Source of the DNA: Phycisphaerae bacterium
GTDB lineage: Bacteria > Planctomycetota > Phycisphaerae > FEN-1346
Length of the DNA stretch: 46,899 bases
Assembly: GCA_035528235.1 (NCBI GenBank)
Contig: DATKZB010000134.1
Coordinates: forward strand, 1 to 46,899
Reading direction: 5' to 3'
The notes below the pieces were generated by a model. The model saw only the letters and a list, made by a program, of their open reading frames with translations, was not told the origin of the DNA and ran no database searches. A program made the position numbers and the translations under genes. Within the stretch, counting starts at the first letter, position 1; each line of letters begins with the position of its first letter. Below are positions 13,306-46,598 of this stretch, one piece after another.

Positions 13306-13382
13306 ACTCGCTCCTGATACAGCGGATGCCTCGTATACCCCTGCCGCGACCGTCGCGGTCCTTGTCGTACTCAGGATACCCT

Positions 13383-13411: not shown

Positions 13412-13422
13412 CCCCGAATCCC

Positions 13423-14667: not shown

Positions 14668-14777
14668 GGTCCCACCCTCCTTGGTGCGGGAGCGTCGGTC
14701 CACGGTCGCCCTCTGGACGGCGGCACAGAAAGAGCCCGCGCGGCGGATCGCGAGGACCCGCCGCGCGGGGCTGAACC

Positions 14778-22557: not shown

Positions 22558-23328
22558 ATGCGTAAGCCGTTCATCTGTGGCAACTGGAAGATGCACACGA
22601 ACCGGGCCGAGGCCGTCGCCCTGGCCCAGGCCACTGCCAAGACCGCCGCCGAGGTGCCGGCCGTCGAGGTCGGCGCCTGCCCGCCCGCCTGTTACATCGA
22701 GGCGGTCGTGGCTGCCGGCAAGGGCACGCCCCTGGTGGTCGGCGGCCAGAACATGGGCGTCGAGGCCAAGGGCGCCTTTACCGGCGAGATTGCCGGGCCC
22801 ATGCTCAAGGACCTCGGATGCCGGTACGTCATCCTGGGTCACAGCGAGCGGCGGCACGTGTTCGGCGAACCCGACGACCTCATCGCCCGGAAGATGCACG
22901 CGGCCTTCGCCTTCGGCCTGCTGCCGATCCTCTGCGTCGGCGAACTCCTCGAGCAGCGCCAGGCCGGCCAGACCCAGGACGTCGTCCGCCGCCACGTGAC
23001 CGGCGGCTTCGAAGGCCTCTCGAAGGACCAGGCCGCCCAGGTCGTCGTCGCGTACGAACCCGTCTGGGCCATCGGAACCGGCGAGACCGCCACCCCCGAC
23101 CAGGCCCAGGAGGTCCACGCGTTTATCCGGGCCCTGCTGACCGACCTGTACGATGCGCCCCTGGCCCAGGCGATCCGCATTCAGTATGGTGGCAGCGTCA
23201 AGCCCGACAACACGTACGATCTTCTGGGGCAGCCCGACATCGACGGGGCACTCGTCGGCGGCGCCAGCCTCAAGGCCGAGTCGTTCAGCACCATCATCAC
23301 CGAGGCCGCCAGGGCACAAACCGTTTAG
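22558..23328 (+). CDS. tpiA: Triosephosphate isomerase
   Basis: The motifs are MRKPFICGNWKMH, ILGHSERR, AYEPVWAIGTG and YGGSVKPDN. Confidence 0.95.
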   Translation: MRKPFICGNWKMHTNRAEAVALAQATAKTAAEVPAVEVGACPPACYIEAVVAAGKGTPLVVGGQNMGVEAKGAFTGEIAGPMLKDLGCRYVILGHSERRHVFGEPDDLIARKMHAAFAFGLLPILCVGELLEQRQAGQTQDVVRRHVTGGFEGLSKDQAAQVVVAYEPVWAIGTGETATPDQAQEVHAFIRALLTDLYDAPLAQAIRIQYGGSVKPDNTYDLLGQPDIDGALVGGASLKAESFSTIITEAARAQTV

Positions 23329-23417
23329 CCGTCGCCACCCACGGCGACGCATGAACCGTTTAGCCGTCGCCGGCACGGCGACGCATGAACCGTTTAGCCG
23401 TCGCCGGCACGGCGACG
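23323..23417. repeat. Tandem array (3 units of 34-35 bp) of GTTTAGCCGTCGCCGGCACGGCGACGCATGAACC hairpin repeats
   Basis: The units are at 23323-23357, 23358-23391 and 23392-23417 and are nearly identical. The first unit contains the tpiA stop codon (TAG at 23326-23328). Confidence 0.8.
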
Positions 23418-23449
23418 TAAACCGAGCAACTTGTGATACGAGGTGATCC

Positions 23450-31709: not shown

Positions 31710-31750
31710 GGCGGCGTTCGGCCCTCGCCGGTACGGCGACGCAAATCCGC

Positions 31751-31859
31751 GTTTAGCCGTCGCCGGCACGGCGACGAGGCTGGGCGCAAGTTCCCGCGGC
31801 CGTACCGGCCGCGGCTAAACGGTCGCGCGCCACGTTTAGCCGTCGCCGGTACGGCGACG
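31751..31859. repeat. Three GTTTAGCC hairpin repeats (direct, inverted variant, direct)
   Basis: GTTTAGCCGTCGCCGGCACGGCGACG is at 31751-31776. An inverted variant is at 31795-31822. GTTTAGCCGTCGCCGGTACGGCGACG is at 31834-31859. Confidence 0.75.
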
Positions 31860-31861
31860 GG

Positions 31862-33124
31862 TCGAAGACCGGCCCCTGGGACCTGGCGACCGCCCTGGCC
31901 CAGCCGGCCGCCGTCCGGCCGGGCGACACCCTCTGGCTGCTGGGCGGGACGTACCGGGGCATCTTCACGGCGCGCCTCAAGGGCACGGCCGAGGCCCCCG
32001 TCACGCTCCGCCAGGCGCCGGGCGAGCGGGCCACCGTCGACTGTGTCGCGGCCGACGGGAAACTGGGTCTCTTCACCGTCGAGGGCGAGCACGCCCGGTA
32101 CTGGGGCTTCGAGGTCACCTGCTCCGGCACCGACCGGTGGGCCGACGACAAGGGCTCGCATCCGGCGGAGTCGGCGCGCGGCGGGGTGAACGCCATGGGC
32201 GGCCACCTGGCCTTCATCAACCTGGTGGTGCACGACGGCTCGAACGGGTTCGGGTGGTGGTCGAGCGGCGAGGGCGGCGAACTCTACGGATGCATTATCT
32301 ATAATAATGGATGGGACGCGCCCGACCGCGGACACGGCCACGCCATCTACGCCCAGAACAGGACGGGCACCAAGCGCATCGTCGATTGCGTGCTGTTCAA
32401 CCAGTTCTGTTACGGCATCCACGCGTACGGGTCGAGCCGGGCCTTCATCAACGGGTTCCACCTGGAGGGCAACGCCAGTTTCAACAACGGGGCCGCCAAG
32501 AGCGCCCAGAGCCTCGCCCCGGGCATCCTGGTGGGCGGCGGAAGCCCCTCGGAACGGATCGTCGTGCGAGACAACTTCACCTACTCCACCGGCCACCGCG
32601 CCACGGCCCTGCAACTCGGGTACGGGGCCGACAACAAGGACGCCGTCGTCACGGGCAACTACTTCGTGGGGCCGTCGACCCTGACGAAGTGGGAGCGGCT
32701 CGAGGTGACGGGCAACACGTTCATCGCGCCCGACGGACCCGTGGGCGTCGGTCCGCCGCCCGAGGGCCTCGACCTGGCGGCATCGAACACGCTCATCCGG
32801 GGCCGGCCCACGGGCACGAAAGTCTTCGTCCGCCCCAACCGGTACGAACCCGGCCGGGCCCACGTCATCGTGTACAACTGGGACCGCCGGAGCGAAGTCG
32901 AGGTCAACCTCGAAGGTCTCCTGAAGACGGGGGCCGCGTACCGCCTCGTCAGCGCCCAGGATTTCTTCGGCAACCCCATTGTCGCAGGTCGATACGACGG
33001 CAAACCCGTGCGCGTGCCGATGACCGAGTATCGGGCGCCGGCGCCCGTGGGCAAACCCGACTACGTGCCGCCCGCCACGGGGCCGGAGTTCAACGTGTTC
33101 GTCGTCCTGCCGCAGGCGCCGTGA
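31862..33124 (+). pseudogene. Right-handed parallel beta-helix protein lacking its 5' end (no start codon or signal peptide for the first ~108 in-frame codons)
   Basis: The frame is open from 31757. From 31862 it reads protein-like sequence: SKTGPWDLATALAQPAAVRPGDTLWLLGGTYRGIFT...VTLRQAPGERATV. The first ATG is at 32186 (GTG at 32177), which is in the middle of the domain. The sequence immediately upstream is the repeat array. Beta-helix motifs include NNGWDAPDRGHGHAIYAQN and CYGIHAYGSS. Confidence 0.55.
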
Positions 33125-33900: not shown

Positions 33901-34049
33901 CTGGTGCTATTTCGTCAACGCGGTGTGGGCTCCTTTGGACCCCGCGCGGTGGCCTTCCCAGGCCACCGCGAATTGACGCAGAGCAACCTGTCGCGGCGGC
34001 CTAGGAAGGCCGCCGCGCACGGTGACGACGAGTTACAGAGTAGCGCTAG
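33901..34049. mobile_element. MITE-like non-coding repeat, copy 2
   Basis: The interior is nearly identical to 1655-1805 (GCGCGGTGGCCTTCC(T/C)AGGCCACCGCGA(G/A)TTG(G/A)CGCAG(G/A)GCAACCTGTCGCGGCGGCCTAGGAAGGCCGCCGCGCACGG). The terminal inverted repeats are more degenerate. It abuts the moeB/thiF stop. Confidence 0.6.
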
Positions 34050-34951: not shown

Positions 34952-37900
34952 TCAGGCCGCGGCCGGACGCCGGCGGGCAAAGAAGAGGCGTACCTTCATG
35001 CCCACGCCCACCAGCACCGTCAGGAGGCCCGCCACCGGGAAGATGCCGATCGCCAGCCCGACGACGCCCAGCACGATGAGGGCCGTCGAGACGGCGGCCT
35101 GTGCCCGCAGGCCCACCTCGCGGCCGCGGAGCCACCGCCGCACCAGGGCAATCAGGATCACCAGGACCGCGGCGCCGCCGACGCGCTCGAGACCCTCGAT
35201 GAGCGGCATCGACGCCGAGCGGGCGGTAACCTCGACCTCTCCGCGCGGCACGGTGAACTGGATCAGCGTGCCACGGCGAGGCAGGTCGACGTCGAGGCTG
35301 GCCGCGCCCGCGACGTCGCCCGGTCCGGCAGCGCCGGTCGCCGGCACCAAAGCCAGGATGGTCCCGCCGTGCGTGACGGCGGCGCCGCTGTGCGTCATGT
35401 AGCCCCACGCGCGGCCCCCGGCACCGCCGCCGACCACTGTTCCCCTCGTGGCCGTCTGGGGTTGCTGCTGTCCGGCGCGTTGTTCGAGTTTGCGTTGGTA
35501 CCGTTCGACGACGGCGGCCTGGCTGAGGCCGCGCTGCTGGGGCTCGGCGGCCTGCTTGGCCTTCTCCTGGGCCTTGCCGGCCTTGTCGCCGAGGATGGCG
35601 AAATTGTCGAACATCTGGACCCCGGCCTGGCCGGGCGCCTGGACCTGCTTGCGCTGGAGGTCTTCCACCTGCTTGCTGTCGCGGAATCGGACGCCGACCT
35701 TGCCCTGCGCGGCCTCGGCTTCCTTGTTGGCGAGGGCGTTCTGGTCGAACCAGGCTTCGTTGAATTGCGGCTGGTCGGCCGGCCTGGCCGCCGGCTTCTG
35801 AGCGGATTCCTTCCAGTTGGGCGAGAGGTCCTGGACGAGATTGCGGGCGCGGCGGTTTCGCTGTCCGGCGTAGAGTTCGCGCATGGAGTCGTTGTTATAA
35901 CCCACCTCGTCGCGCTGGGCCTTTTCCTGCGACTCGATCTCGCGGCCGACGCTCTGGAGGATGGTGGCGCTGCTCGAAAGTTCGGTCTGCACGGTCGCGT
36001 TGCCGCGGTAACTTTTTAGGTCCTCCTGGAGCCCCTGGAGCGACTGGCCGACGTTGGCCAGGTTCGACTTGGCCCGCATCTGGGCGAAGGGGTTCTCGGA
36101 CCGCAGCGTCTGCATCAGGCGGTCGGCCACCTTGTTCTGGTACGACAGCAGGCCCGCCTCGAGTGTGCCCGCCTCGGTCACGCGGGTCATCGTGCCGCCA
36201 AAGTCGAACCACACGTGCGTCTCGGGCAGGTACAACTGCACCTGGCTGAGTTCGGCGTTGATGTTGACGGCGCGGACCAGCGGGAACTCGACCGACCACG
36301 CCAGGGCGCCCAGCGACTCGATCCGGCCGCCGTACTTCAGAACGACGGCGTAGTCGAGGTCGCCGGAGGCGGTCTTGACGATGGGGATGCGCACGCGTCG
36401 CGGCGCGGCGGCGTCGTCCATAAGGGTCGGCTTGACCGGCTCGCCGGCCACGACGGCCGTCCAGAGCGCCGCCCCCTGGGGCATCTCGACCTCCAGAAAC
36501 TGCTCGATCCGGTTGTCGATACGATAGACCACCTGGCCGCGGTAGGCGCCGCTGGAGTCCATCACCAAATCCGTCTGCGCCAGGCCGATGCGTGCACCGA
36601 CGGTCTCGACGGCCGCACGTTCCTTCGTCTGGAACGCCAGCCGGGGCGCCTCGGCGCCCGGCGCGACGATAAACGCCTGCGTCATGCCGCCGCGAAGGAT
36701 CCCCGCCACCGCCGCCCACTCTTTCTGCTGGCGGTTCAGCGATTCCAGGCCGTCTTGCTGCGCGATGACCACCTCGTCGCGGCCCGCGCTCTCGATGGCC
36801 ACGTACCGGCGATCGGTCCGGCCCGTCTCGACGACCGGAATCGGCACGTCGTGCGTCCCGGCCGACAGCAGCCGGTCGTTCTCCACCAGGACGCGCAGGT
36901 CGTCCATGACCTCGTCCTGGAGTTCCAGGCGCACCCGCACCATCGCCCCGTCGTCGCCCACGGGGGTAATCGTCTTCTGCCTGAGGAGCGGCACCTGGAT
37001 GCGGGCGTCCTTCATCCAGGCCGGCAGCAGGAACGTGACCTCGCGGACGCCGGCGTTCTTGATGGTCCAGTTGACCAGGATCGTTTCGTCGATCGAGCGG
37101 TCGGTGACCCGCGAGTTGGTGACCGTGAAGCACGCAACGTCCGGCTGGCGGGCCGCCAGGACCAGCCGCCCCGCGTAGTCGGGCCGGGTGTAATGCAGCG
37201 CCAGCACCGCCAGGCCCTTCTGGTCGTTGCTCAGCCAGCTGCTGACCTGTTGCAGGAGCACCCGCTCGATGTTCGCCAGGTCCTCGGTCCGCACGTCGAA
37301 CGCCGGGTCGACCTGCACGACGACGTCGCCCTGCTGCCGCTCGACGTCGAGGACTTCGATGCGCGGCACGGCCGTTTCGAGCGTCTTGGCGTCCTGGCCG
37401 AGTTTGCCCTGGATGACGATGGGGCACTGGCCCTGGACGCCGCCGGCCAGGTAAACGGTCAGGACCTTGCGGCCGCCGTCGTCGGTCAGGGCCCACTCGA
37501 ACGCGCCGGGCGCCAGAACGCGCTCCAGGTCGAGGTCCGGCGGAACGACGAACCGCGCCCAGTACAGCGGCCGGTTCTCGACGCTCAAGGTCGCCCGGGC
37601 CTCCAGGCTCCGCTCGCGCTCGGCCACCCGGACGATCATCTGGACGGTCGCCGACTTGCGCGCCGCCACCGGCTCGGCCGCCAGACGGACCGAGAACGGC
37701 GTGGCCACGAAAGCGTACGCCTGGAACGGCCGGATGCCCAGGGGGCTTTCGACCTCGGCCGCGCCGGCCTGGGGCTTCTTCTTCGTCTCGGCCGGCAGGT
37801 CGTCGCGCCGCACGCCCGTGGTGCCGACCGTCCGCAGGTCGAGCAGCGGGCTGCGCCGGATGACGAGCCGGCCCGTGTGCCGCTGGGCACCCGTCACGCC

Positions 37901-40900
37901 GATGACGGGCACCTCGAACGGCTGCCCGCCGAACGGGGCCGCGCCCTGCCCGGCCTGCTGCCAGATCGAGACCGTGAAATCCTCCGAGCCCTTGGCCCGC
38001 TTGAGCAGCGTCACCGTGACCTCGCGGCGGCCGGCGGCGTCTTTCAGTTCCCAACCGCGGACGTTCGTCCCCTCGACCTTCTCAACGGCGTACCCGGCGG
38101 GGACCTCGACGGTAAAGAAGTCGCGTTCGCCGTGGCGGAACTCGAGGTGGAGCGACCAGACGAGGCGCAGACTGTCTTCCTGGACGTCGAGGACGGCCTG
38201 GGAATCGGCCGTCAGGGTCTGGTCGAGTTGGCCTTCGGCGACCTTCGGCCGCCACTGGACGCCGACCGATCCGTCGGCGCCGAGGGCCGTGCGGATGGCC
38301 TCGCCGGCGGCTTTCGTCTCGTAGACCGCGCGGTCCGACACGCCGCCCAACCGGACCTCGGTGCCGGCGTCGGGCACCGTCAGGGTCAGCGCCGTGGCGG
38401 GGGCGGCCGGCACACGCCCCTCGGTCACGCGCCATCCGCCGCGGCGCGACAACCGCATCCGCACCGCCACGTCCAGGCGGTGCCGTCCCTTGCCCGAGAC
38501 GTACAGCACGACGAACGACCGCTTGGGCGGTTCCTTGGCGTCCTTGCTCTGGGGCGCACTGGGATCGACGTCGGCCACGCTCAGGCGGGCGGGCCGGCCG
38601 TCGAGGTCGGCCTTGGCCAGGACGCCGCCCTCCAGGGGCAGCGGCACCGCCACGTAGTCGTCGGCGTAGACGTCGACGTCGAGGGTGCCCTCGACCAGCA
38701 GGAACTCGTCGCCGCGCAGGGTCGCGCGGAACGCCGCACCCGCCAGCGCGTACGGCGCGGGCGGCGGCTTGGCGCCGATGGGCTTGTCGGGGTACGCCAG
38801 GTTCCACAACTCGACATATTTGTCATACGGAACGAGCAGGCGGCCGGCCTCCTGGATGCCCGTCTTCGACGCCGGGTCGTACGGCAGGATGATGGCGTCG
38901 GCGGGCACCTTGACCGGCTTGGGCGGCGGCACGATCTGGACGACGTACGGCCCGTCCTTCTCCTCGGCCGCGGCCGGGGCGCCCGTCATCAACAGCGCCG
39001 CCGCCACGAGCACCATCCCCGCCGCCACCACCGGCGGCACGAAGGCCCCGCGCACCTTGCCGGCAAACCATCGAACGCAACTGGCCGCCAGGTAGTACGG
39101 TATCAGCACGCACGCCGCGTAGAACGCCCCGTTCACGACCATCGCCAACTCGATGCGGGCCGTGATGACGGGAATCAGCGTCGCCACCAGGCCGACGCCC
39201 ACCACGTACGCCGCCTTGCGCCAGACCCGCTGCGTCGTCAGGGCCACGCCCACCACGATGACCGCCAGCGCCAGTCCCCACGCCAGGGTCTCGATGCGGC
39301 CGCCGTCGGCGACGGTCAGGTCGAGCCGCGGCTCCGACCCGAGGCTGCGGAACGTGACGGCCTCGCCGGTGGGCACCAGGCGGATGTCGAGACTGGCCAC
39401 GCCCTCCAGGGCCCAGGCCTTTCGGAGTTGTTCCTTGGCGATATCCTTCTTGGACACCGGCGCCTTGGCCGGCCTGGCCGGCGCCGTGGTGGCGGTGGGT
39501 GGCGGCGGGGTCGCCGGCGCCGGTTCCTCGGCCGGCTTGGCGTCGGGCTCCGCGGCGGAAGCCGACTCGTCCCCATCCGGTCCGGCCGGCATTCTCTTAT
39601 GAAGGCGGTCGGCATCCTCCTTGCCGCCCGCGACGCGACCGCGCGAGCGCATGCCGCCCGTCCGGCCGTTCTTCTCCCCCTCGGCGCGCTTGAACTCCTC
39701 GCGCGACTCGCCCCCGGCCTCCTCGTCGGCCTCGACGCCCCCGAGGCTGAGCTGCTCCGCCACCTCACGGCCCGGCCTCTGCCCGACATTCTGCACCATC
39801 TGCACCTTGGGAGCCGCCATCTGCGCGGCGCAGCCGCCGAACCCCAGGACGAGACCCAGGGCGCCGTGGTCGAAGTCCACGCCGCCCGACCCGTAGTACA
39901 GCGCCGTGGCCACGTTGGCGACGGCCAGCGGCGGCGGGGCCACCTCGTGCGTCACGACGCTGCCCTCCGAGCGGATGACCTTGTACCCGGTGGGCATGAA
40001 CAGGCGCCACAGCAGGTCGGCCACGGGCACCTCTTCGCCCTCGCCGACCGTGCCGGCGTGCAGCACCAGCCGCGGCGCCGGCACGTCCACGCCGCGCCAG
40101 AAACCCAGCCCCCCGACCGGCGTCTCGTAGACGACCAGCAGGTCGCGGACGGCCCCGGCGGCGGCGGCCGGCAGGTTCAGCAGCATCCGGTCGGCCTCGC
40201 GCTGCGGCTTGATGGGGTCGGAATCGAGCGTGGCCGACCAGAGGGTCGAACCTTTCGGCAGCCGGACCTCCAGGAACAAGGCCTTCGTCCGCAGCAGGAA
40301 CCGCGCCGCCGTCTGGGCCACGCCGTCGGCCGACATGACGGTGGCCAGTTCGGCCCGCTGGATGATGGCCGGCGGCAGGCCCAGCGTCGGGTGCCGCGCT
40401 ACCGACACACGGACCGCTGCCGGGACGCCCACGAACCCGTACGCCCCCAGCAGGCGGCGGCCGGGCTGGTACTCGGCGTCGACCAGTTCGCCGATGTCGA
40501 CCTTGCGCGGATGGGCCGCGATGCGGACGTCGAGTTCCGGGCTGCCCTCGACGGCCACCAGGCCCGACTGGTACGCCACGCCGTCGGCCTCGACGACCGG
40601 CAGGGCGAGGTCCTCGGGTTCGAGTTGGTCGAGCCGCTGCTCGAAGTCGACGGCCAGGCGGACGGTGCCGCTTTGCCGCTCGGCCAGCAGGGCCGTCCAG
40701 CGGCGGCGGGCCGTGTCCTTCTCGCCGACGGTCTCGCTCGTGTACTCCTTGACCGCGACGTCGTCGAGGCCGCGAATGGCCAGCGCGGTGGGCGTGGTCT
40801 CGGGCAGCACCAGCGCCAGCCGACGCGTCCGGGCACCCGCCACGTCGTACACAATCTCGTAGTGCGCCACCAGGACGTCGCGCTCGACGCGGAAGAACGA

Positions 40901-42730
40901 GAACGTCTGGGCGGTGACGCGCGGCAGCGTCCGCTCGACCGTCAGGCGGGCCCGATACGGCTGGCCCTCGTACCGATAGGCCAGGACGGCCGCCACGCCC
41001 GCCAGGCCGTAACGGGTCTTCTCGTTCTCGTCGAGGGGGGTGAGGCCTTCGAGCGTCTCGGGCCGGACGGTCATGTCGTCGCGGGCGTCGACGGCAATGG
41101 CGCCGACGTCGCGGGCCGCGCCGGCCACCGCGAACACGGGGAACTCGGCCGACGTGCCGGCCCACTCGCTGAACCACGTCTTGGGCACGTGAACGGCCGT
41201 GAAGTACACCTGCCGCTCGGTGCCGGCCGGTATGCCGCTGGGGAGCCGCACGTGGACGCGCGCCGTCTGGCCGGCCGCGCCGTACCGCTCGAACGGCACG
41301 GGGTTGCCGTCGGCCCCGGTAACGGCCGTCACGTCCCAGCCGGCGGGTGCCGAGAAGTCGAACGCGAAGAGTTTTTCCTCTTCGGGCACCAGGGCGAAGC
41401 CGCCGCGAACGGTCAGGCCGCCGTCCTCCAGGACGGCCAGCAGGTTGGTCGTGACGCGCAGCCGCGCGGGCGGCCGGACGAACCGCGCCGCCAGTCCGAA
41501 CGCCGCCTGCGGGGCGTAGTACGCCACCACCGGGCGGATGCGGGCCGCGCCCGGCTGGGCCTCCAGCACGGTGGCCGGCAGGGCCTTCGCCAGGACGGCC
41601 GTGTCGATGGGGATGAGGCCCTCGGGCGAGATCGCTTCGGCCTTCAGCCGGTCCTCGACGGCCAGGCCGACCACGGCCACGTGACCGACCACGTCGAGCG
41701 GTTCGAGTTTCGACAGCGCCCACGACGCCAGGTCGGGCGCGGTCCGCACGGCCGACAGGTTCAGGACGACCGTCTCGGTGGTCTCGTCGCGAAGTTGGAC
41801 GTCGAGGATGCGGCGGTCGCCCTCGGTCACGATGGCCCAGCGGGCCAGGTTGGGCGACCGCACGTCGGTTACCTCGAACCCGGCGGGCACCGCGAACCGG
41901 AAGTCGCGGACGGCCCGGTGCAGGATGCCCATCGACACGGTAACGTGCAGCCGCTCGTAGGCCGCCGTCACCTCGTCGAGCAACACGCTGCGGGCCACCA
42001 CGATGCGGTCCTTGCGCAGGAGCCGGCTGTTGAGCGTCATGACGAGCGAGACGTCGCCGCGCTGCGGCAGCACCTCGATGCGGGTGACATCGGCCTTCTC
42101 GTCGAAGACGCGGGTGACGACCGGCGCGCCGGACTTGACCTCGACGTCGCCGGGCACCGTCAGGCGCAGTCGCGCGGCAGGGGGCGTGGGCAGGCGGAAG
42201 CTCAGGATCTGCCGGGCGGCGGTCGTCTGGATCGCCGTCACCATGTCGAGAACGAGCGTGTGCCGGCCCTTGCCCTCGACGAAGAGGGTCAGGCGGCCGT
42301 CGTCGGCCAGGCCGATGGCGGCACCGTGCCCATCGAGGGTGGCGCCGCGCAGGCCCACGCCGCCCACGTCGAGGCCGATGGCGTGCAGGCCGTCCTCCAG
42401 GATGCTGACGACGAGGGTGCCGGTGATTTCGGCCCGTTCGTCGCCGGCCTTGGCGTCGTAGTCGGCCGAGACCACGAGGGCCGCCTGCGGGGGCCGGCTC
42501 TCGGCCTCCTTTTTGGCCTTCGCCAGGAGCGTCTCGTACTGCTCGCGCGACAGGAGGACGCGGTTCGGGTCGCCCTCCAGCAGGGCATTCAGGTCCTCGA
42601 ACGGGACGAAGATCTCGCGGACGATCTTTTCGGGACCGGGACCGGGCGGGGTCGGCGGTTCGGCGAGGGCCGCGGCCGGGCCGGCCAGCGCGGCCAAGAC
42701 GAGCACGAGCATGGGCAGGAGTCTACGCAT
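34952..42730 (-). CDS. Giant envelope protein (2592 aa) of unrecognised family; two tandem paralogous modules separated by a 4-TM cluster
   Basis: The start was chosen at the ATG at 42730 (MRRLLPMLVLVLAALAGPAAALAEPP, a signal peptide). It is preceded by AGGGGGTGA and overlaps the upstream stop. Codon bias is consistent over 7.8 kb. The internal TM cluster is at about 38965-39286. The C-terminal 3-TM cluster is at about 34955-35191. No named domain was recognised by eye. Confidence 0.8.
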   Translation of the reverse strand: MRRLLPMLVLVLAALAGPAAALAEPPTPPGPGPEKIVREIFVPFEDLNALLEGDPNRVLLSREQYETLLAKAKKEAESRPPQAALVVSADYDAKAGDERAEITGTLVVSILEDGLHAIGLDVGGVGLRGATLDGHGAAIGLADDGRLTLFVEGKGRHTLVLDMVTAIQTTAARQILSFRLPTPPAARLRLTVPGDVEVKSGAPVVTRVFDEKADVTRIEVLPQRGDVSLVMTLNSRLLRKDRIVVARSVLLDEVTAAYERLHVTVSMGILHRAVRDFRFAVPAGFEVTDVRSPNLARWAIVTEGDRRILDVQLRDETTETVVLNLSAVRTAPDLASWALSKLEPLDVVGHVAVVGLAVEDRLKAEAISPEGLIPIDTAVLAKALPATVLEAQPGAARIRPVVAYYAPQAAFGLAARFVRPPARLRVTTNLLAVLEDGGLTVRGGFALVPEEEKLFAFDFSAPAGWDVTAVTGADGNPVPFERYGAAGQTARVHVRLPSGIPAGTERQVYFTAVHVPKTWFSEWAGTSAEFPVFAVAGAARDVGAIAVDARDDMTVRPETLEGLTPLDENEKTRYGLAGVAAVLAYRYEGQPYRARLTVERTLPRVTAQTFSFFRVERDVLVAHYEIVYDVAGARTRRLALVLPETTPTALAIRGLDDVAVKEYTSETVGEKDTARRRWTALLAERQSGTVRLAVDFEQRLDQLEPEDLALPVVEADGVAYQSGLVAVEGSPELDVRIAAHPRKVDIGELVDAEYQPGRRLLGAYGFVGVPAAVRVSVARHPTLGLPPAIIQRAELATVMSADGVAQTAARFLLRTKALFLEVRLPKGSTLWSATLDSDPIKPQREADRMLLNLPAAAAGAVRDLLVVYETPVGGLGFWRGVDVPAPRLVLHAGTVGEGEEVPVADLLWRLFMPTGYKVIRSEGSVVTHEVAPPPLAVANVATALYYGSGGVDFDHGALGLVLGFGGCAAQMAAPKVQMVQNVGQRPGREVAEQLSLGGVEADEEAGGESREEFKRAEGEKNGRTGGMRSRGRVAGGKEDADRLHKRMPAGPDGDESASAAEPDAKPAEEPAPATPPPPTATTAPARPAKAPVSKKDIAKEQLRKAWALEGVASLDIRLVPTGEAVTFRSLGSEPRLDLTVADGGRIETLAWGLALAVIVVGVALTTQRVWRKAAYVVGVGLVATLIPVITARIELAMVVNGAFYAACVLIPYYLAASCVRWFAGKVRGAFVPPVVAAGMVLVAAALLMTGAPAAAEEKDGPYVVQIVPPPKPVKVPADAIILPYDPASKTGIQEAGRLLVPYDKYVELWNLAYPDKPIGAKPPPAPYALAGAAFRATLRGDEFLLVEGTLDVDVYADDYVAVPLPLEGGVLAKADLDGRPARLSVADVDPSAPQSKDAKEPPKRSFVVLYVSGKGRHRLDVAVRMRLSRRGGWRVTEGRVPAAPATALTLTVPDAGTEVRLGGVSDRAVYETKAAGEAIRTALGADGSVGVQWRPKVAEGQLDQTLTADSQAVLDVQEDSLRLVWSLHLEFRHGERDFFTVEVPAGYAVEKVEGTNVRGWELKDAAGRREVTVTLLKRAKGSEDFTVSIWQQAGQGAAPFGGQPFEVPVIGVTGAQRHTGRLVIRRSPLLDLRTVGTTGVRRDDLPAETKKKPQAGAAEVESPLGIRPFQAYAFVATPFSVRLAAEPVAARKSATVQMIVRVAERERSLEARATLSVENRPLYWARFVVPPDLDLERVLAPGAFEWALTDDGGRKVLTVYLAGGVQGQCPIVIQGKLGQDAKTLETAVPRIEVLDVERQQGDVVVQVDPAFDVRTEDLANIERVLLQQVSSWLSNDQKGLAVLALHYTRPDYAGRLVLAARQPDVACFTVTNSRVTDRSIDETILVNWTIKNAGVREVTFLLPAWMKDARIQVPLLRQKTITPVGDDGAMVRVRLELQDEVMDDLRVLVENDRLLSAGTHDVPIPVVETGRTDRRYVAIESAGRDEVVIAQQDGLESLNRQQKEWAAVAGILRGGMTQAFIVAPGAEAPRLAFQTKERAAVETVGARIGLAQTDLVMDSSGAYRGQVVYRIDNRIEQFLEVEMPQGAALWTAVVAGEPVKPTLMDDAAAPRRVRIPIVKTASGDLDYAVVLKYGGRIESLGALAWSVEFPLVRAVNINAELSQVQLYLPETHVWFDFGGTMTRVTEAGTLEAGLLSYQNKVADRLMQTLRSENPFAQMRAKSNLANVGQSLQGLQEDLKSYRGNATVQTELSSSATILQSVGREIESQEKAQRDEVGYNNDSMRELYAGQRNRRARNLVQDLSPNWKESAQKPAARPADQPQFNEAWFDQNALANKEAEAAQGKVGVRFRDSKQVEDLQRKQVQAPGQAGVQMFDNFAILGDKAGKAQEKAKQAAEPQQRGLSQAAVVERYQRKLEQRAGQQQPQTATRGTVVGGGAGGRAWGYMTHSGAAVTHGGTILALVPATGAAGPGDVAGAASLDVDLPRRGTLIQFTVPRGEVEVTARSASMPLIEGLERVGGAAVLVILIALVRRWLRGREVGLRAQAAVSTALIVLGVVGLAIGIFPVAGLLTVLVGVGMKVRLFFARRRPAAA

Positions 42731-45700
42731 GGTTCTCACCCCCTTCGCTCTGCGAGCCTTCAGCGGGCGGCGGGGCGTCCGGCTGAGGCGGCGGGGCCGG
42801 CGGCCTGGCCGCGGCGACGCGAGCGGCGCGGGCGCGGGCCGCCTCGATGGCCTCGCGGCGGGCCTTCCTGCGGGCGATGACGTGCGGGTCGCGCGGACGC
42901 GTCCACACCAGGTACCACACCAGCCAGATGACCAGAACGATGAAGATGGCGGCAAACATGACTCCGCCGGCAACCTGCCGCACGAAGTTCGGCGCAAAGA
43001 CGCCCAGCAGGACCAGCAGGACGATAAACGCCCCCGCGGCCACGCACCGCGTCGTCCACGGCCTCAGCGCCAGGGCGATGCCGATGACGAAGATGACGGC
43101 GAACACCGCCACGGCCAGCCAGTTGCCGTCCATGGCGACCAGGCGCAGGCGTCCCTCGGGCGGGGCGGCGGGCTTCAGCGTCGAGAACAGGTACGCCTGC
43201 CCGTCGGTCTGGAAAGTCTGCTCGGCGCCGCCCTCGACGTTCAGGCCCTCGCGGACCCACGCGATGAGCCCGGCGTCGGCCCTCCGGGGCACCGGGCGCC
43301 ACAGGTCTTCGCCCAGATGCCACACCACTTCCTCGGTCCACGGGCCGACGAAGCCCAGGTAGGCCCACTCGCTCGGCAGCCACGCCGACAGGTACACCTT
43401 CTGGACGGCGGGTTCCTCGGGGAAGACCGGGCACTCCAGCGCCAGGCCCGCGCCGCTGACGGTGTACCGCAGTTCCAGCAGGAACGGTTCGCCGGCCTGT
43501 TGCCCCACGAGGGGCACGAAGAAGGTGTTGCCCTCCTTGTCGCCGCGCTCGAGCGAGACGGCCCGGCCGTTGAGGCGCAGGGGTTCGGTGTCGAACTTCA
43601 CGTTCTCGGGCAGCCGCACCAGCAGCCGCTGCCGCGCACTGCGGGCCTGGTACAGCGCCTGCACGCTCACCAGGTCGCTGCGGGTCACGACGATCCGCAC
43701 GAGGGCCCGCTCGATGCAGGTGTGCTTGATATCTTCGAGTTTGTACATCGTGGCGACGACGGTCAGGGCCCAATCCTCGTGGAACTCGAAGGCCCTGGCG
43801 GCTCCGGGCACCGCGGCCCCGGGCATGAGGTCGTGTTGCGGGTCGATGGGCCGGAGGCCCTTGACCTTTCCCTCGCCCTCGGCCCGCTGGACGTCGATGG
43901 TCTCGGCCTTGGCCAGGACGATCTGGCCCCAGGCGCGGTCGGCGCCCCGGGGAATGAGGCGCGGGATGTCGAGGTTCACGCTCGTGCCGACGTCGAGTTT
44001 CTCGATCTTCTTTTCCCAGGTCAGCCTCACGCCGACCGACCCCATGAACTCGGTGTCGCCGGTCAGTCGCCAAGCCACGTAGCCGTCGGCCAGGTCGTCG
44101 GGTTTCTCGGCGATGGTCTCGTGGCGGACCGTCAGGGGCGTGACGCGGATGTCGGCGGCCAGGTCCTGCGGCACGTCGACGCGCAGGTTCTTCACGCCGC
44201 TGTACAGGACGTCGTAGAACAACTGGGCCGAGTACTTGACGACGCCCGAATCGATTCGCGCCACCAGCAGTTGCCGCGCGGTCACGTGGGGCTTGCGCCG
44301 CTCGGCCGCCAGGGCCAGCGACGCCGGCTCCTGGGTGTAGGCGAACGCCAGGACGGGCCGCTCGCCCTTGTGCTGGCCGCTCGCCATGTTCTGGATGGCT
44401 TCCTGGTGGGTGACGGTCCGCAGGCCGGCCAGTTTGCCGGGGTTGACGCGAAGGCTCTCGGGCGCGTAGACCACGAGGCGGCCCGTCTCGCGTTCGACGC
44501 TCTGGGGCGCCACGCGCGGAATGGCCAGGGGGATGTCGGCGGCCTTGCCGGTGGGCGCCAGCAGGTCGGGCTCGCGCAGGGTCTTGTGGAGTTCCACGGC
44601 CAGGGCCACGGGCCCGAGGGCCTTGCGCGAGAGGTTGACGAGAAGGCGCGTCTTGTCGGGGTCCTGGAGGTGATGCGAATCGACCTGGGCGGCCGGTATC
44701 TTGGCGACGCTCTGGCCGCGAACGCTCCGGACGTCGTAGCCGGCCGGCACGTCGATCTCGAACCGGAAGACCCCGGCCCGCTCCACCGTGTAGACCACCA
44801 GCAGGTTCACCCGCAGGGCCTCGGTGCCCAGGTGGGCCTCGACGAGCGAGTCGGCGAGGACGCGCGGCTGGATCTTCTCGACGCCCAGCGTCAGGTCGAA
44901 CGGCAGGGCGGCGTACCGGTACGAGAAGTCCCACGCGCCCTTGGCCAGGGCGGCGGGGAGTTCGGCGGCGTCGAGTTGCAGCAGGCCCGTGTGGGCGACG
45001 GCCTCGGCCCGCAGGCCCTGGCCCACCTTGACCACGATGACGCCCTGCTGGCGACCCACGCCCACCGCCTTGATGACGGGGGCCTTGACCTGGGGCATCT
45101 GCTCGGCGCTGAACTTCTCGAGGTCCAGCACGAGGCTCTGCTTTTCCTTGGCGGGCTCGAACAACTGGACGGTGATCTTCTGGACCTGGCCGGCGGGCGC
45201 CACCGACCACTCGCGGACGTTCGGGTCGAAGACGCCGGCCACTTTCTGGTCGGCGGGCACCTCGACCTCGAGGCTCCCCAGTTCCGCCCGGCTGATTTCG
45301 TACGCGAGCGTGGCCCGGGTGCGCGCGACGCCCTCCTCGATGGTCGTCTGCTGCTCGACCTGGACGCTGGCCAGCGCCGCCAGGCCCTTGGCCCCTTCGG
45401 CCTTGGGCGTCCAGTCGATGCGGACCGTGGGGGCCGCGCCCACGAACGCCAGCACGACGGTCTCGTTGGCCGCCCCGGCGGCGGGCGGAACCTCGGTAGC
45501 CGCCAGCAGCGGGTGGATGTTCACCTTGACGCCCGACTCCGGTATCCGCACCTCCCACTTGCTGACCGGGGCCTGCGGGCTCTCGAACGACACGCTGTTC
45601 TGGCCCGGGGTCTTGGTGTACGCCTTGGCGAACCCGAGCGTGAGGACCATCGCCTGGGGGGCCTTGCCCTTCTTCTCGACGAGCAACTTGTACCCGCCCT

Positions 45701-46169
45701 TGGGGTCGGCCACGATGCGGGCGGGCTCGTTGCCCAGGGCGGCCTTCGTCAGGGCCACGTCGCCCAGGCGCAGCAGCACTTCGTTCCAGCCCTCCTTGAG
45801 GACCTCGAACTTGATGGTGGCCTCGACGGTGACGACGTCCTTAGAGACGGTGGCCACGCCGGCGATCTCGGTAAGGAGGGCGTCGACGGGCAGTTTGGCC
45901 TCCTCGGGCGGGGCCGTTTTGTCGCGGGCGGCCTTCCAGAGTTCCTGGAACTTTTCGTACGGCAGGAACACGCCGCGACCTTCCTTCTCGAAGATCTCGC
46001 GGAGTTTCGAGTAGGGGATGTAGATGCTCTGCTCGCGGACGGCCTTCGCCTCTTCCGCCGACAGGGGCGCCTTGGCCTCGGGCGCGGGCGCCGCCGCAGG
46101 GGCCGCCGCGGCCCACAGGGTCGCCAGCACCAGTCCGGCCACAACCGGCCATACTCGAGAGGTTCGCAT
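42723..46169 (-). CDS. Large envelope protein (1148 aa) of unrecognised family; single module paralogous to the two halves of the downstream gene
   Basis: The start was chosen at the ATG at 46169 (MRTSRVWPVVAGLVLATLWAAAAPAAAPAPE, a signal peptide). The ectodomain is about 1000 aa. Three TM helices lie at about 42903-43121. A 59-aa basic/Pro-rich tail follows. Confidence 0.8.
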   Translation of the reverse strand: MRTSRVWPVVAGLVLATLWAAAAPAAAPAPEAKAPLSAEEAKAVREQSIYIPYSKLREIFEKEGRGVFLPYEKFQELWKAARDKTAPPEEAKLPVDALLTEIAGVATVSKDVVTVEATIKFEVLKEGWNEVLLRLGDVALTKAALGNEPARIVADPKGGYKLLVEKKGKAPQAMVLTLGFAKAYTKTPGQNSVSFESPQAPVSKWEVRIPESGVKVNIHPLLAATEVPPAAGAANETVVLAFVGAAPTVRIDWTPKAEGAKGLAALASVQVEQQTTIEEGVARTRATLAYEISRAELGSLEVEVPADQKVAGVFDPNVREWSVAPAGQVQKITVQLFEPAKEKQSLVLDLEKFSAEQMPQVKAPVIKAVGVGRQQGVIVVKVGQGLRAEAVAHTGLLQLDAAELPAALAKGAWDFSYRYAALPFDLTLGVEKIQPRVLADSLVEAHLGTEALRVNLLVVYTVERAGVFRFEIDVPAGYDVRSVRGQSVAKIPAAQVDSHHLQDPDKTRLLVNLSRKALGPVALAVELHKTLREPDLLAPTGKAADIPLAIPRVAPQSVERETGRLVVYAPESLRVNPGKLAGLRTVTHQEAIQNMASGQHKGERPVLAFAYTQEPASLALAAERRKPHVTARQLLVARIDSGVVKYSAQLFYDVLYSGVKNLRVDVPQDLAADIRVTPLTVRHETIAEKPDDLADGYVAWRLTGDTEFMGSVGVRLTWEKKIEKLDVGTSVNLDIPRLIPRGADRAWGQIVLAKAETIDVQRAEGEGKVKGLRPIDPQHDLMPGAAVPGAARAFEFHEDWALTVVATMYKLEDIKHTCIERALVRIVVTRSDLVSVQALYQARSARQRLLVRLPENVKFDTEPLRLNGRAVSLERGDKEGNTFFVPLVGQQAGEPFLLELRYTVSGAGLALECPVFPEEPAVQKVYLSAWLPSEWAYLGFVGPWTEEVVWHLGEDLWRPVPRRADAGLIAWVREGLNVEGGAEQTFQTDGQAYLFSTLKPAAPPEGRLRLVAMDGNWLAVAVFAVIFVIGIALALRPWTTRCVAAGAFIVLLVLLGVFAPNFVRQVAGGVMFAAIFIVLVIWLVWYLVWTRPRDPHVIARRKARREAIEAARARAARVAAARPPAPPPQPDAPPPAEGSQSEGGENHA

Positions 46170-46340
46170 GATCAGGCCCTCGGAAATGGATTCATGACGA
46201 TACATTGTGGAGGAAGCCCCCGCCGTCACCGTGCGCACCGGCCGTAGGTCTCTTGAATAGACGCAGCCCCGTCGCCCCGGTTCCCCGCATTTTCGGGCCT
46301 CGCGGCCGCCCCCGCCAGCAAAAAGCCGTCAGTGGCAGCC

Positions 46341-46396
46341 GAACCGCGGCCAATATCCGAGCCGCGGCCAGTATCCGAGCCGCGACCGTCAGGGAG
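46341..46396. repeat. About 2.5 tandem copies of an 18-bp unit GCCGCGGCCA(A/G)TATCCGA
   Basis: The units were read at 46343-46360, 46361-46378 and, degenerate, at 46379-46396. They lie between the giant-gene start and the transposase. Confidence 0.55.
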
Positions 46397-46598
46397 CGGC
46401 AGGCTGGCCGCGTGGCCCCAACGGCGCCGCTCGCTGGCGCTCGCGGCTAGAGCAGTTCACGCTTGATTGTAGCGATACTGGCCTTTCGCAGGTTTTGAGG
46501 ATACCGCGGGCGGATGGGGGAAGCAAGGAAGATGAAAGCGAGCCGGCCCGACGTGCCGAGAGAAGAGTTGCGAAGCGACTCGCACCGGAGGCCGGGCC

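What the first reader, a model, noticed from the sequence alone, without database searches (positions are those of the whole stretch)
34952..46169. 11.2 kb tandem pair of giant paralogous envelope proteins with no recognisable family
Two co-directional genes of 1148 and 2592 aa occupy about a quarter of the window. Neither carries any catalytic, adhesin, cadherin, RHS, VWA, TPR or autotransporter motif that I can recognise. Both have Sec-type signal peptides and very long beta-rich ectodomains. Each has membrane-proximal TM clusters and short basic tails. A segment of the type EVxVPAGxxVxxVxGxxVxxW recurs in the ectodomains at about 38048-38120, 41815-41897 and 44720-44765. Near each N-terminus the block xGTLxVxVLxDGxxxIxLxLGGVxLxxAxLDGxPAxI....LxVxGKGRHxLxL is collinear. 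This architecture predicts a multi-module scaffold anchored in the cytoplasmic membrane and projecting far into the periplasm or onto the cell surface. It is the best candidate in this window for an undescribed envelope system.
Basis: partly seen in the sequence, partly recalled or inferred. Interest (0 to 1): 0.8.

Follow-up and report, generated by a model that had tools for sequence, protein, structure and literature searches.

The report
Undescribed three-module PVC envelope protein complex
Two overlapping genes encode three related giant membrane-anchored proteins, each carrying a long chain of beta-sandwich domains on the periplasmic side; the set is strongly conserved in Planctomycetota, has a distant unfused version in a Verrucomicrobium isolate, matches no described protein family, and has an unknown function.

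Summary
On the minus strand, gene A (42723-46169, 1148 aa) and gene B (34952-42730, 2592 aa) are real genes: GC3 is 0.92 and dN/dS of the ectodomains is 0.10-0.14.

B is itself a fusion of two A-like modules, B1 and B2. A conserved signal-peptide-like segment ending in an AxA site joins them. Each module has the same layout:
- a signal peptide,
- a conserved N-terminal motif,
- about 850 aa of beta-sandwich domains,
- a tether of variable length,
- a beta-hairpin,
- three transmembrane helices,
- a basic tail.

B's start codon lies 8 nt inside the end of A (ATGnnTAR, preceded by GGAGG). B follows A in 73 of 75 related loci. No other neighbour is conserved.

Pfam, NCBIfam, PADLOC and PDB sequence searches give nothing. 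Structure searches hit only generic beta-sandwich chains (integrin alpha legs, Ost1/ribophorin I, PIG-T). The family has about 2,700 clusters at 50% identity. Verrucomicrobium sp. BvORR034 carries an unfused three-gene version.

Best reading: an equimolar scaffold of three modules, anchored in the cytoplasmic membrane and extending into the periplasm. The architecture is shown; the function is inferred. I rate it an undescribed family of moderate to high interest.

The parts
42723..46169 (-). Gene A, 1148 aa: one complete module
   Evidence: ORF and translation. GC3 is 0.92. More than 980 homologues at 54-82% identity, all annotated 'hypothetical' and without Pfam domains. dN/dS is 0.16. AlphaFold2 model has mean pLDDT 86.1.
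46089..46169 (-). Signal-peptide-like N-terminus of A (aa 1-27: MRTSR, a hydrophobic core, then PAAA|PAPE)
   Evidence: Sequence, hydropathy and helix 6-21 in the model. Cleavage is inferred, not tested.
45918..46034 (-). Conserved N-terminal motif of A (aa 46-84: EQSIYIPYSKLREIFEKEGRGVFLPYEKFQELW)
   Evidence: It holds the densest run of invariant residues in the family (E46, Y50, P52, Y53, L56, G64, R65, F68, L77, W78). pLDDT is only 53-76 in the monomer model.
43287..45881 (-). Ectodomain of A (aa 97-961): about six to seven beta-sandwich domains
   Evidence: Almost all-beta, with pLDDT mostly above 90. dN/dS is 0.10. Weak internal repeat signal: D2~D5 87.6% and D3~D5 77.5% hhalign probability. 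Foldseek hits are integrin alpha legs, Ost1/ribophorin I and the N-terminal domain of aminopeptidase N.
42900..43199 (-). Pre-membrane beta-hairpin (aa 991-1014) and three transmembrane helices (aa 1015-1090) of A
   Evidence: Hydropathy. Model helices 1015-1034, 1038-1066 and 1069-1090, joined by loops of 2-3 residues.
42723..42899 (-). Cytoplasmic tail of A (aa 1091-1148): a basic helix, a proline-rich stretch and a conserved ...EGGxxHA end
   Evidence: Helix 1095-1118. The conserved last residues coincide with the Shine-Dalgarno sequence and start codon of B.
42723..42746 (-). Translational-coupling junction: GAAGGGGGTGAG (Shine-Dalgarno-like) followed by ATGCGTAG, so B's ATG at 42730 lies 8 nt inside the end of A
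   Evidence: Sequence. An ATGnnTAA/TAG overlap preceded by GGAGG occurs in about 68 of the related loci. B follows A in 73 of 75 loci with enough sequence.
34952..42730 (-). Gene B, 2592 aa: a fusion of modules B1 (aa 1-1228) and B2 (aa 1256-2592)
   Evidence: B orthologues are 2500-2800 aa, without Pfam domains. dN/dS is 0.27. B1-like and B2-like are separate genes in Verrucomicrobium sp. BvORR034.
39896..42628 (-). N-terminal motif (aa 35-75) and beta-sandwich ectodomain (to aa 945) of B1
   Evidence: Collinear with A at E 8e-26. dN/dS is 0.11. Its last domain is modelled with pLDDT 80-92.
39431..39850 (-). Tether of B1 (aa 961-1100): charged and proline-rich, predicted disordered
   Evidence: pLDDT 28-37. 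Poorly conserved and gap-rich among orthologues. dN/dS is 1.3.
39047..39361 (-). Pre-membrane hairpin and three transmembrane helices of B1 (aa 1124-1228)
   Evidence: Model strands and helices with pLDDT 85-92. dN/dS is 0.14.
38966..39046 (-). Internal signal-peptide-like segment (aa 1229-1255: KVRGAF, an Ala/Leu/Val core, then PAAA|EE)
   Evidence: A basic n-region, a hydrophobic h-region and a c-region with small residues at -3/-1 (the AxA pattern; one of the 44, P0392, has G at -1) occur at this junction in 44 orthologues. pLDDT is below 50, unlike the three preceding helices. The homologous position is the N-terminal signal peptide of the separate gene V3 in Verrucomicrobium. Cleavage is inferred.
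36161..38947 (-). N-terminal motif (aa 1262-1313: PYVVQIVPPPKPVKVP..AIILPYDP..LLVPYDKYVELW) and beta-sandwich ectodomain (to aa 2190) of B2
   Evidence: Collinear with A at E 1e-23. Conserved among orthologues. The modelled part (to aa 1940) is beta-rich with pLDDT 80-95. dN/dS is 0.14.
35321..36133 (-). Tether of B2 (aa 2200-2470): Q/N/K/E-rich. Its first ~120 aa keep a constant length and the rest varies
   Evidence: Conservation profile. dN/dS is 0.59. This region was not modelled.
34952..35302 (-). Pre-membrane segment, transmembrane cluster and basic tail (RLFFARRRPAAA) of B2 (aa 2477-2592)
   Evidence: Sequence and hydropathy. dN/dS is 0.19. Collinear with the C-terminal part of A (A 990-1078 vs B 1122-1210 for B1; B2 by inspection).

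Best explanation
A and B encode a three-module complex made in equal amounts and anchored in the cytoplasmic membrane, with its bulk in the periplasm.

Shown:
- There are three paralogous modules (A, B1, B2). Each has a signal peptide, a conserved N-terminal motif, a chain of about six or seven beta-sandwich domains, a tether, a beta-hairpin, a tight bundle of three transmembrane helices and a basic tail.
- B's start codon overlaps the end of A behind a Shine-Dalgarno sequence, and this arrangement is conserved across the family.
- The ectodomains and membrane segments evolve as slowly as cytoplasmic enzymes, while the tethers evolve freely.

Inferred:
1. The Sec system exports each ectodomain. 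The positive-inside rule places all three ectodomains in the periplasm and the tails in the cytoplasm.
2. Signal peptidase I cuts B at the conserved internal AxA site. This would give three mature modules with free N-termini.
3. The modules assemble 1:1:1 through their membrane bundles and/or their conserved N-terminal motifs.
4. The beta-sandwich arms sit on tethers of about 30 (A), 160 (B1) and 280 (B2) residues. They would form a non-enzymatic scaffold or spacer that organises the periplasm, or that links the cytoplasmic membrane to the wall, the outer membrane or a partner enzyme.

No catalytic motif is present. The actual cellular role is unknown.
For: - Real genes under purifying selection: GC3 0.92. 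dN/dS is 0.10-0.14 in the ectodomains and 0.14-0.19 in the B1/B2 membrane segments (0.44 for A's C-terminal part, aa 962-1148, which includes its tail), against 0.36 for the neighbouring ThiF gene and 0.6-1.3 in the tethers.
- Three collinear paralogous modules.
- Topology and fold: AlphaFold2 of A has pLDDT 86.1, with an all-beta region 97-961, a hairpin, three helices at 1015-1090 and a cytoplasmic helix. The B 741-1940 model shows the same hairpin and three-helix bundle, a disordered tether and a low-confidence fourth helix.
- Coupling and co-occurrence: A is followed by B in 73 of 75 loci. The junction is GGAGG, 6-8 nt, then ATGnnTAR in about 68 loci. No other neighbour is conserved.
- Internal signal peptide: conserved in 44 orthologues. 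It is homologous to the N-terminal signal peptide of a separate gene in Verrucomicrobium sp. BvORR034, where the system is three genes.
- Conservation comparable to housekeeping proteins in the same genome pairs: A 59% and B 61% versus ThiF 61%; A 54% and B 45% versus YicC 38%.
- Non-enzymatic scaffold analogues: Foldseek best hits are integrin alpha legs (E 4e-10 to 1e-9), Ost1/ribophorin I (E 3e-9 to 7e-8) and PIG-T (E 2e-5). All are beta-sandwich stalks or scaffolds next to a membrane anchor.
- No enzyme or adhesin family is detected.
Against: - No experiment or expression data are available.
- Physical association of A, B1 and B2 is not shown. The single-chain model spanning B1 and B2 had pTM of only 0.38, and the N-terminal motif of B2 reached only pLDDT 58-78, so no inter-module contact was demonstrated.
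- Signal-peptide cleavage, at the N-termini and internally, is predicted by eye only.
- No conserved partner gene points to a process.
- Periplasmic rather than surface location rests on topology rules and slow evolution. The one domain hint is a weak sub-threshold STN match in the Verrucomicrobium B1-like protein (Pfam E 2.9e-5, 24.2 bits against a cut-off of 28.4), and it has no PDB sequence support.
- 'Scaffold' is a default reading for a protein with no catalytic signature.
Confidence: 0.4

Rival explanations
1. The modules are accessory subunits of an unidentified membrane enzyme or of the Sec translocon. Their beta-sandwich platforms would hold exported polypeptides or glycans next to the membrane. 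This is how Ost1/ribophorin I works in oligosaccharyltransferase and PIG-T in GPI transamidase.
For: Two independent models (A, and B 741-1940) both hit Ost1/ribophorin I with probability 1.00. The E-values are 3e-9 to 7e-8, covering about 440-500 columns, essentially the whole lumenal part. PIG-T is hit at E 2e-5. The general layout is the same: beta-sandwiches outside the cytoplasm followed by a C-terminal membrane anchor.
Against: TM-scores are low (0.23-0.31 on the target). Pfam Ribophorin_I does not match any of 37 members even at E<=10. No STT3/PglB-like, transamidase or Sec gene is linked in 84 loci. Integrin legs score equally well, so the resemblance may only reflect tandem beta-sandwiches.
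Confidence: 0.15
2. It is a conduit or shuttle across the periplasm for a bulky substrate such as lipid, polysaccharide or protein. This would be analogous in principle to the multi-domain MCE (LetB/PqiB) or AsmA-like bridges.
For: Each of the three arms has about 850 aa of stacked beta domains, long enough to cross a periplasm. The different tether lengths could stack the arms. PVC bacteria lack characterised equivalents for several envelope-trafficking steps (general knowledge).
Against: There is no MlaD/MCE, AsmA or TamB signature. Neither model reports a groove or tunnel, although coordinates could not be inspected. No ABC transporter or outer-membrane partner gene is linked. The membrane helices carry no conserved charged residue.
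Confidence: 0.12
3. It is a cell-surface layer or adhesin: an S-layer-like lattice, or a stalked adhesin anchored by its C-terminal helices. Archaeal S-layer glycoproteins and the SlaA/SlaB pair are comparable.
For: Giant beta-sandwich proteins with a C-terminal membrane anchor, encoded by adjacent genes, resemble archaeal S-layer systems (general knowledge). The tether of B2 could act as a stalk.
Against: Planctomycetota and Verrucomicrobiota have an outer membrane, so a protein anchored in the cytoplasmic membrane ends up in the periplasm. There is no SLH, PEP-CTERM, T9SS, autotransporter or cadherin/Big signature. The ectodomains evolve more slowly than a neighbouring cytoplasmic enzyme, which is the opposite of exposed surface proteins. 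No tandem-repeat expansion is present.
Confidence: 0.07
4. It is a periplasmic protease trap or defence protein of the bacterial alpha-2-macroglobulin type.
For: Alpha-2-macroglobulin appears among the Foldseek hits (rank 43, E 5e-5). One B orthologue (P0344) carries a weak SQHop_cyclase_C-like insert that recalls thioester-domain folds.
Against: The Foldseek probability is only 0.18 and the TM-score 0.07. There are no MG-domain or thioester Pfam matches. No CxEQ thioester motif is visible in A or B. No PBP1c neighbour is present. PADLOC finds nothing.
Confidence: 0.03

Closest known systems
Ost1 / ribophorin I (non-catalytic subunit of eukaryotic oligosaccharyltransferase) and PIG-T (GPI transamidase)
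   Same: Tandem beta-sandwich domains outside the cytoplasm, followed by a C-terminal membrane anchor, with no catalytic site. Foldseek probability is 1.00 and E 3e-9 to 7e-8 for two independent models. PIG-T is hit at E 2e-5.
   Different: No sequence or profile similarity. There are six or seven domains rather than two, and three membrane helices rather than one. The system has three paralogues made from one operon. No linked transferase gene is present. TM-scores are only 0.23-0.31.
Integrin alpha-subunit legs (thigh, calf-1, calf-2)
   Same: A chain of beta-sandwich domains leading to a membrane anchor and a short basic cytoplasmic tail, in a protein that works as part of a hetero-oligomer. 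These are the best Foldseek E-values (4e-10 to 1e-9).
   Different: There is no beta-propeller head and no FG-GAP repeats. TM-scores are 0.10-0.16. The host is bacterial and the likely location periplasmic. It has three helices, not one.
BatD and DUF4139/MuiA
   Same: Exported bacterial proteins rich in beta-sandwich domains, of poorly known function and common in the same phyla (general knowledge).
   Different: Neither Pfam family matches A, B1, B2 or 34 other diverse members, even at E<=10. No MoxR/DUF58/VWA (Bat operon) genes lie nearby. A structural comparison was not possible because no AlphaFold DB library was available.
Bacterial alpha-2-macroglobulins (e.g. YfhM/ECAM)
   Same: Very large periplasmic proteins built from many beta-sandwich domains and tethered to the cytoplasmic membrane.
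   Different: No MG or thioester domain matches. Foldseek probability is 0.18. The anchor is transmembrane helices rather than a lipid. No PBP1c partner is present.
Archaeal S-layer pair SlaA/SlaB
   Same: Adjacent genes encode giant beta-sandwich proteins, one with a stalk and a C-terminal membrane anchor (general knowledge).
   Different: No detectable similarity in any search. The host here has two membranes. All three modules are anchored. Evolution is slow.

Membership tests
BatD (Pfam PF13584, Bat aerotolerance operon) | Match to the BatD profile | tested here: not met
   No Pfam hit at E<=1 for A or B. BatD is absent from the weak hits of 37 members at E<=10.
BatD (Pfam PF13584, Bat aerotolerance operon) | Neighbourhood with MoxR ATPase, DUF58 and VWA (BatA/BatB) genes | tested here: not met
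   The window neighbours are ThiF, a beta-helix protein, a DUF5060 protein, a HI0933-like protein and others. No conserved neighbour occurs across 84 loci.
DUF4139 / MuiA family | Match to the DUF4139/DUF4140 profiles (TIGR02231) | tested here: not met
   No Pfam or NCBIfam hit.
DUF4139 / MuiA family | Shared fold with DUF4139 models | not testable with these tools
   No AlphaFold DB library was available, and the searches returned no solved structure of the family.
Ribophorin I / Ost1 (Pfam PF04597) | Match to the Ribophorin_I profile | tested here: not met
   PDB profile searches do not retrieve Ost1/RPN1.
Ribophorin I / Ost1 (Pfam PF04597) | Structural superposition of the two lumenal beta-sandwich domains | tested here: inconclusive
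   Foldseek E 3e-9 to 7e-8 and probability 1.00, but TM-score 0.23-0.31 and rmsd 11-25 A. A domain-by-domain comparison was not possible.
Ribophorin I / Ost1 (Pfam PF04597) | Association with an STT3/PglB-type oligosaccharyltransferase | tested here: not met
   No such gene lies in the window flanks or is conserved near the pair. Genome-wide presence was not tested.
Integrin alpha | Seven-bladed FG-GAP beta-propeller head | tested here: not met
   No FG-GAP or VCBS hits. The similarity is confined to a beta-sandwich chain with a global TM-score of 0.10-0.16.
Alpha-2-macroglobulin | MG domains plus a thioester (CxEQ) domain | tested here: not met
   No Pfam hits. The motif is not seen in the translations. 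Foldseek probability is 0.18.
Autotransporter / RHS / cadherin / VWA / TPR adhesins | Any of the corresponding profile matches | tested here: not met
   Zero families at E<=1 in Pfam and NCBIfam.
Anti-phage defence systems (PADLOC) | Match to any PADLOC model | tested here: not met
The A/B family itself (undescribed) | Module layout (signal peptide, phi-phi-phi-P-Y motif, beta array, hairpin, three transmembrane helices), with an A gene overlapped by a double-module B gene | tested here: met
   An unfused variant is in L085.

The most novel reading that the evidence does not exclude
The three modules form a PVC-specific machine that spans the periplasm and has no counterpart in model bacteria. 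It could be the organiser of the unusually wide and invaginated planctomycetal periplasm. It could also be a membrane-to-wall or outer-membrane connector that replaces missing classical envelope-tethering systems. B would then be a bacterial polyprotein cut at an internal signal peptide.
Probability: 0.12. Interest if true: 0.9.

Novelty: categorically new. Interest (0 to 1): 0.66.

Why it matters
The cell biology of Planctomycetota and their relatives is still poorly explained at the molecular level. This includes the enlarged periplasm, membrane invaginations and atypical division.

These 11 kb of coding sequence are kept under selection as strong as on housekeeping enzymes. The family has thousands of sequence clusters, is always made as a coupled set of three modules, and cannot be assigned to any described family.

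That makes it a well-defined, testable candidate for a core envelope component specific to this group. An unfused version exists in a cultured Verrucomicrobium, which gives an experimental entry point.

The conserved internal signal peptide in a bacterial membrane protein is unusual in itself. If it is cleaved, B would be a Sec-processed polyprotein.

Tried and rejected
- Pfam, NCBIfam and PADLOC scans of A and B found nothing. Pfam on six atypical or distant members gave only sub-threshold noise.
- Pfam at E<=10 on 37 members gave no recurrent family. DUF5693 appeared in 6 members with best E 0.037, probably from the membrane segments.
- PDB sequence and profile searches with A, B and alignments A1 and A2 gave only chance-level hits. 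P0406 gave none.
- A Rfam scan of the window found nothing.
- The promoter and terminator scan was uninformative.
- A homologue search with a profile of distant members returned only 5 proteins, limited by the word index. It did uncover the Verrucomicrobium relative.
- I looked for a conserved third gene. The large gene upstream in the closest relatives (L005, L007, L086) is unrelated and absent from the window. ThiF downstream is kept only in the window's own lineage.
- I tried to link the family to the Akkermansia mucin-utilisation (MUL) 'periplasmic protein complexes'. The primary paper is not held, and the reviews give no protein details. This lead is untested and is not used.
- A single-chain model across the B1-B2 junction did not reveal inter-module docking. 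pTM was 0.38 and the motif pLDDT was only moderate.
- MAG labels such as Kiritimatiellia, Lentisphaeria, Omnitrophota and Anaerolineales on proteins 50-82% identical to A are probably unreliable. The true Verrucomicrobium orthologue is only 24% identical. I therefore do not use them to claim breadth.

Full report
**1. What is in the sequence**

The region holds two co-directional genes on the minus strand. A is 42723-46169 (1148 aa). B is 34952-42730 (2592 aa). The window is about 70% G+C, so long ORFs occur in several frames. These include antisense ORFs of 2221 and 1244 aa over the same DNA. ORF length is therefore not evidence of a gene.

The minus-strand frames have the composition expected of real genes at this G+C: GC at codon positions 1/2/3 is 0.72-0.74 / 0.46-0.49 / 0.92. 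A contig 95% identical in DNA (L086) allows a direct test of selection:

| Region | dN/dS |
|---|---|
| A, whole gene | 0.16 |
| B, whole gene | 0.27 |
| Three ectodomains | 0.10-0.14 |
| B1/B2 membrane segments | 0.14-0.19 |
| A C-terminal part (aa 962-1148, tail included) | 0.44 |
| Two long linkers of B | 1.3 and 0.59 |
| Adjacent ThiF-family gene | 0.36 |

The genes are real and strongly constrained.

**2. Three modules, not two**

A aligns with B 35-841 (E 8e-26) and with B 1226-1947 (E 1e-23). The two halves of B align with each other (E 1e-15 over about 870 residues). B is thus a head-to-tail fusion of two A-like modules, B1 and B2.

The two in B are equivalent positions of B1 and B2. 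The one in A (44720-44765) is the same strand motif in the next domain; the strict A equivalent is at 45228-45272. Profile comparison of the domains of A gives weak support for internal repetition: D2~D5 87.6% and D3~D5 77.5% probability.

**3. Anatomy of a module**

AlphaFold2 on A, with 113 homologues, gave mean pLDDT 86.1 and pTM 0.53. The model shows:
- a signal-peptide-like helix at 6-21,
- two short helices at 53-84 that carry the most conserved motif of the family (EQSIYIPY..GRGVFLPY..F..LW), at only moderate confidence,
- an almost purely beta region at 97-961, about six or seven sandwich domains with pLDDT mostly above 90,
- a beta-hairpin at 991-1014,
- three helices at 1015-1090 joined by loops of 2-3 residues,
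- a basic cytoplasmic helix at 1095-1118.

A second model covered B 741-1940 with 44 orthologues, giving pLDDT 73.6 and pTM 0.38. It shows:
- the last sandwich domain of B1,
- a disordered linker of about 130 residues (pLDDT near 30),
- the same hairpin and three-helix bundle (pLDDT 85-92),
- a fourth hydrophobic helix with pLDDT below 50,
- the N-terminal motif of B2, here as two short strands plus a helix (pLDDT 58-78),
- a beta array like that of A.

With the N-terminus outside, three helices put the basic tails in the cytoplasm. The fourth segment of B1 then returns the chain outside for B2. All three ectodomains are therefore on the same, extracytoplasmic side. This follows from the sequence and the positive-inside rule; it was not tested.

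The spacer between the last sandwich and the hairpin differs between modules: about 30 residues in A, 160 in B1 and 280 in B2. The spacers are the only poorly conserved parts.

**4. The internal signal peptide**

In all 44 B orthologues examined, the B1-B2 junction has the same sequence of features:
- a basic stretch,
- an Ala/Leu/Val-rich core of 15-20 residues,
- a site with small residues at -3/-1 (AAA|EE, AVA|D, AMA|D, AQA|A, ARA|E; one orthologue, P0392, has AYG|QE),
- then the conserved PYVIQVVPPPxPVKVPxDAIILPYDP.

This is the anatomy of a Sec signal peptide with a signal peptidase I site.

The cultured Verrucomicrobium sp. BvORR034 carries the same system as three separate genes (L085):
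- V1, 1193 aa, is A-like over its full length (BLAST E 1.5e-53; family profile E 8e-164).
- V2, 1559 aa, is closest to B1.
- V3 is cut by the contig end. It has its own N-terminal signal peptide followed by the motif (..VIVPFD....YYLDYATFQKLW).

The internal segment of B is therefore the retained signal peptide of a formerly separate gene. Whether it is still cleaved is an inference.

**5. Coupling and gene context**

B's ATG lies 8 nt inside the end of A (ATGCGTAG) and is preceded by GAAGGGGGTGAG. Across the related loci, B follows A in 73 of 75 cases with enough sequence. The junction is GGAGG, 6-8 nt, then ATGnnTAA/TAG in about 68 loci. The conserved C-terminal '...EGGxxHA' of A is this signal read in A's frame. 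This implies coupled, equimolar synthesis.

Nothing else is conserved around the pair. ThiF downstream is kept only in the window's lineage. The other window neighbours are housekeeping or unrelated genes.

**6. Distribution and conservation**

A has more than 980 relatives in the word-indexed search, at 54-82% identity, all 'hypothetical' and none with a Pfam domain. B behaves the same way, with orthologues of 2500-2800 aa. An exhaustive HMMER search of 1.84 billion cluster representatives found 2,672 clusters at E<=1e-3 and 681 at E<=1e-30. Two exact peptide patterns alone found the gene in 318 species genomes, and the 80 loci kept and listed are all MAGs. Most are labelled Planctomycetota, Phycisphaerae or Pirellulales. 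The nearest named relatives are 'Planctomycetes bacterium SM23_25' and 'Phycisphaerae bacterium'.

Labels such as Kiritimatiellia or Anaerolineales on proteins more than 50% identical are probably unreliable, because the true Verrucomicrobium orthologue is only 24% identical.

Between the same genome pairs, A and B are as conserved as cytoplasmic proteins, or more so: A 59% and B 61% versus ThiF 61%; A 54% and B 45% versus YicC 38%. That is unusual for envelope proteins and argues against an exposed, fast-evolving adhesin or surface layer.

**7. Comparison with known families**

- Pfam, NCBIfam and PADLOC give no hit to A or B at E<=1.
- Pfam at E<=10 on 37 diverse members, including B1 and B2, shows no recurrent family. 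BatD, DUF4139, Ribophorin_I, MG and Big domains are all absent.
- PDB sequence and profile searches give only chance-level hits.
- Foldseek against the PDB gives confident but low-overlap matches for both models. These are integrin alpha legs (E 4e-10 to 1e-9, TM 0.10-0.16), Ost1/ribophorin I (E 3e-9 to 7e-8, TM on target 0.23-0.31), PIG-T (E 2e-5), the N-terminal domain of M1 aminopeptidases and LTA4 hydrolase, and alpha-2-macroglobulin (probability 0.18).

All of these are chains of beta-sandwiches. Several are non-catalytic stalks or scaffolds next to a membrane anchor. They describe what the fold looks like, not what the family is.

**8. Most likely mechanism**

I propose a 1:1:1 complex of A, B1 and B2, anchored in the cytoplasmic membrane, whose beta-sandwich arms project into the periplasm from tethers of different length.

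The support is indirect:
- coupled translation,
- conserved triplication,
- conserved loops and N-terminal motifs that are poorly ordered in monomer models, which suggests interfaces,
- slow evolution,
- absence of catalytic signatures,
- scaffold-like structural analogues.

Assembly, processing, location and role are all inferred, so my confidence is about 0.4.

The rivals are:
- an Ost1/PIG-T-like accessory platform for a membrane enzyme or the translocon (0.15),
- a trans-periplasmic conduit (0.12),
- a surface layer or adhesin (0.07),
- an alpha-2-macroglobulin-like trap (0.03).

A weak STN-domain hit in the tether of the Verrucomicrobium B1-like protein (E 2.9e-5, below threshold) hints at a periplasmic setting, but it has no PDB sequence support. 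The presence of the system in Verrucomicrobium, a genus I recall as having FtsZ (from general knowledge; not tested here), argues against a role tied to FtsZ-less division.

**9. Verdict**

- The family is undescribed, large and strongly constrained.
- It has two notable features: conserved translational coupling, and a fused double module with a retained internal signal peptide.
- The function remains unknown.

Noticed in passing
window 33901-34048 and 1655-1804: A roughly 150-nt imperfectly palindromic intergenic element is present twice at 87% identity. One copy lies just after the ThiF stop codon, at the 3' end of the A-B-ThiF block. It is also present at the same place in the related contig L086. 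It could be a REP/MITE-like element or a terminator.
   Followed up: partly
window 22383-22479, 23321-23419, 31715-31776: Further short intergenic repeats of 60-100 nt at 79-85% identity.
   Followed up: no
window 46339-46448: Upstream of gene A there is an 18-nt tandem direct repeat (CCGARCCGCGGCCARTAT, two copies) and a 23-nt inverted repeat. Synteny with the 95%-identical contig L086 breaks at about 46336, right next to these repeats.
   Followed up: partly
window 36215-42880 (+) and 42513-46247 (+): Antisense ORFs of 2221 and 1244 aa lie over genes B and A. They are not among the ORFs that pass the coding-type GC3 filter and are by-products of the 70% G+C content.
   Followed up: yes
L085 (Verrucomicrobium sp. 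BvORR034, BATQ01000050.1) 6405-15447: An unfused three-gene version of the system (V1 A-like, V2 B1-like, V3 B2-like). V2 carries weak STN and Secretin_N-like hits in its tether region. Two FtsW/RodA-family genes lie 3-5.5 kb upstream of V1 (about 6.5-9 kb upstream of V2).
   Followed up: partly
P0344 (B orthologue, 3504 aa), residues 1035-1143: A B orthologue with an extra insert that weakly matches SQHop_cyclase_C (E 1.8e-6). The insert lies roughly where the B1 tether lies in the window's B (aa 961-1100); the two proteins were not aligned here. P0197 (2372 aa) is another atypical fusion.
   Followed up: no
L056 and L061 (same MAG, CAZJYI01): One metagenome-assembled genome carries two separate A-B loci.
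   Followed up: no
window 13421-14329 and 14776-15681: Two adjacent stretches 68% identical in DNA. They look like tandem paralogous genes on the minus strand.
   Followed up: no
window 29532-33124 (+): A DUF5060 plus bacterial TSP3-repeat protein (725 aa) is followed by a right-handed beta-helix protein. The pair is conserved next to ThiF in L086. They are probably secreted glycan-active proteins unrelated to A and B.
   Followed up: no
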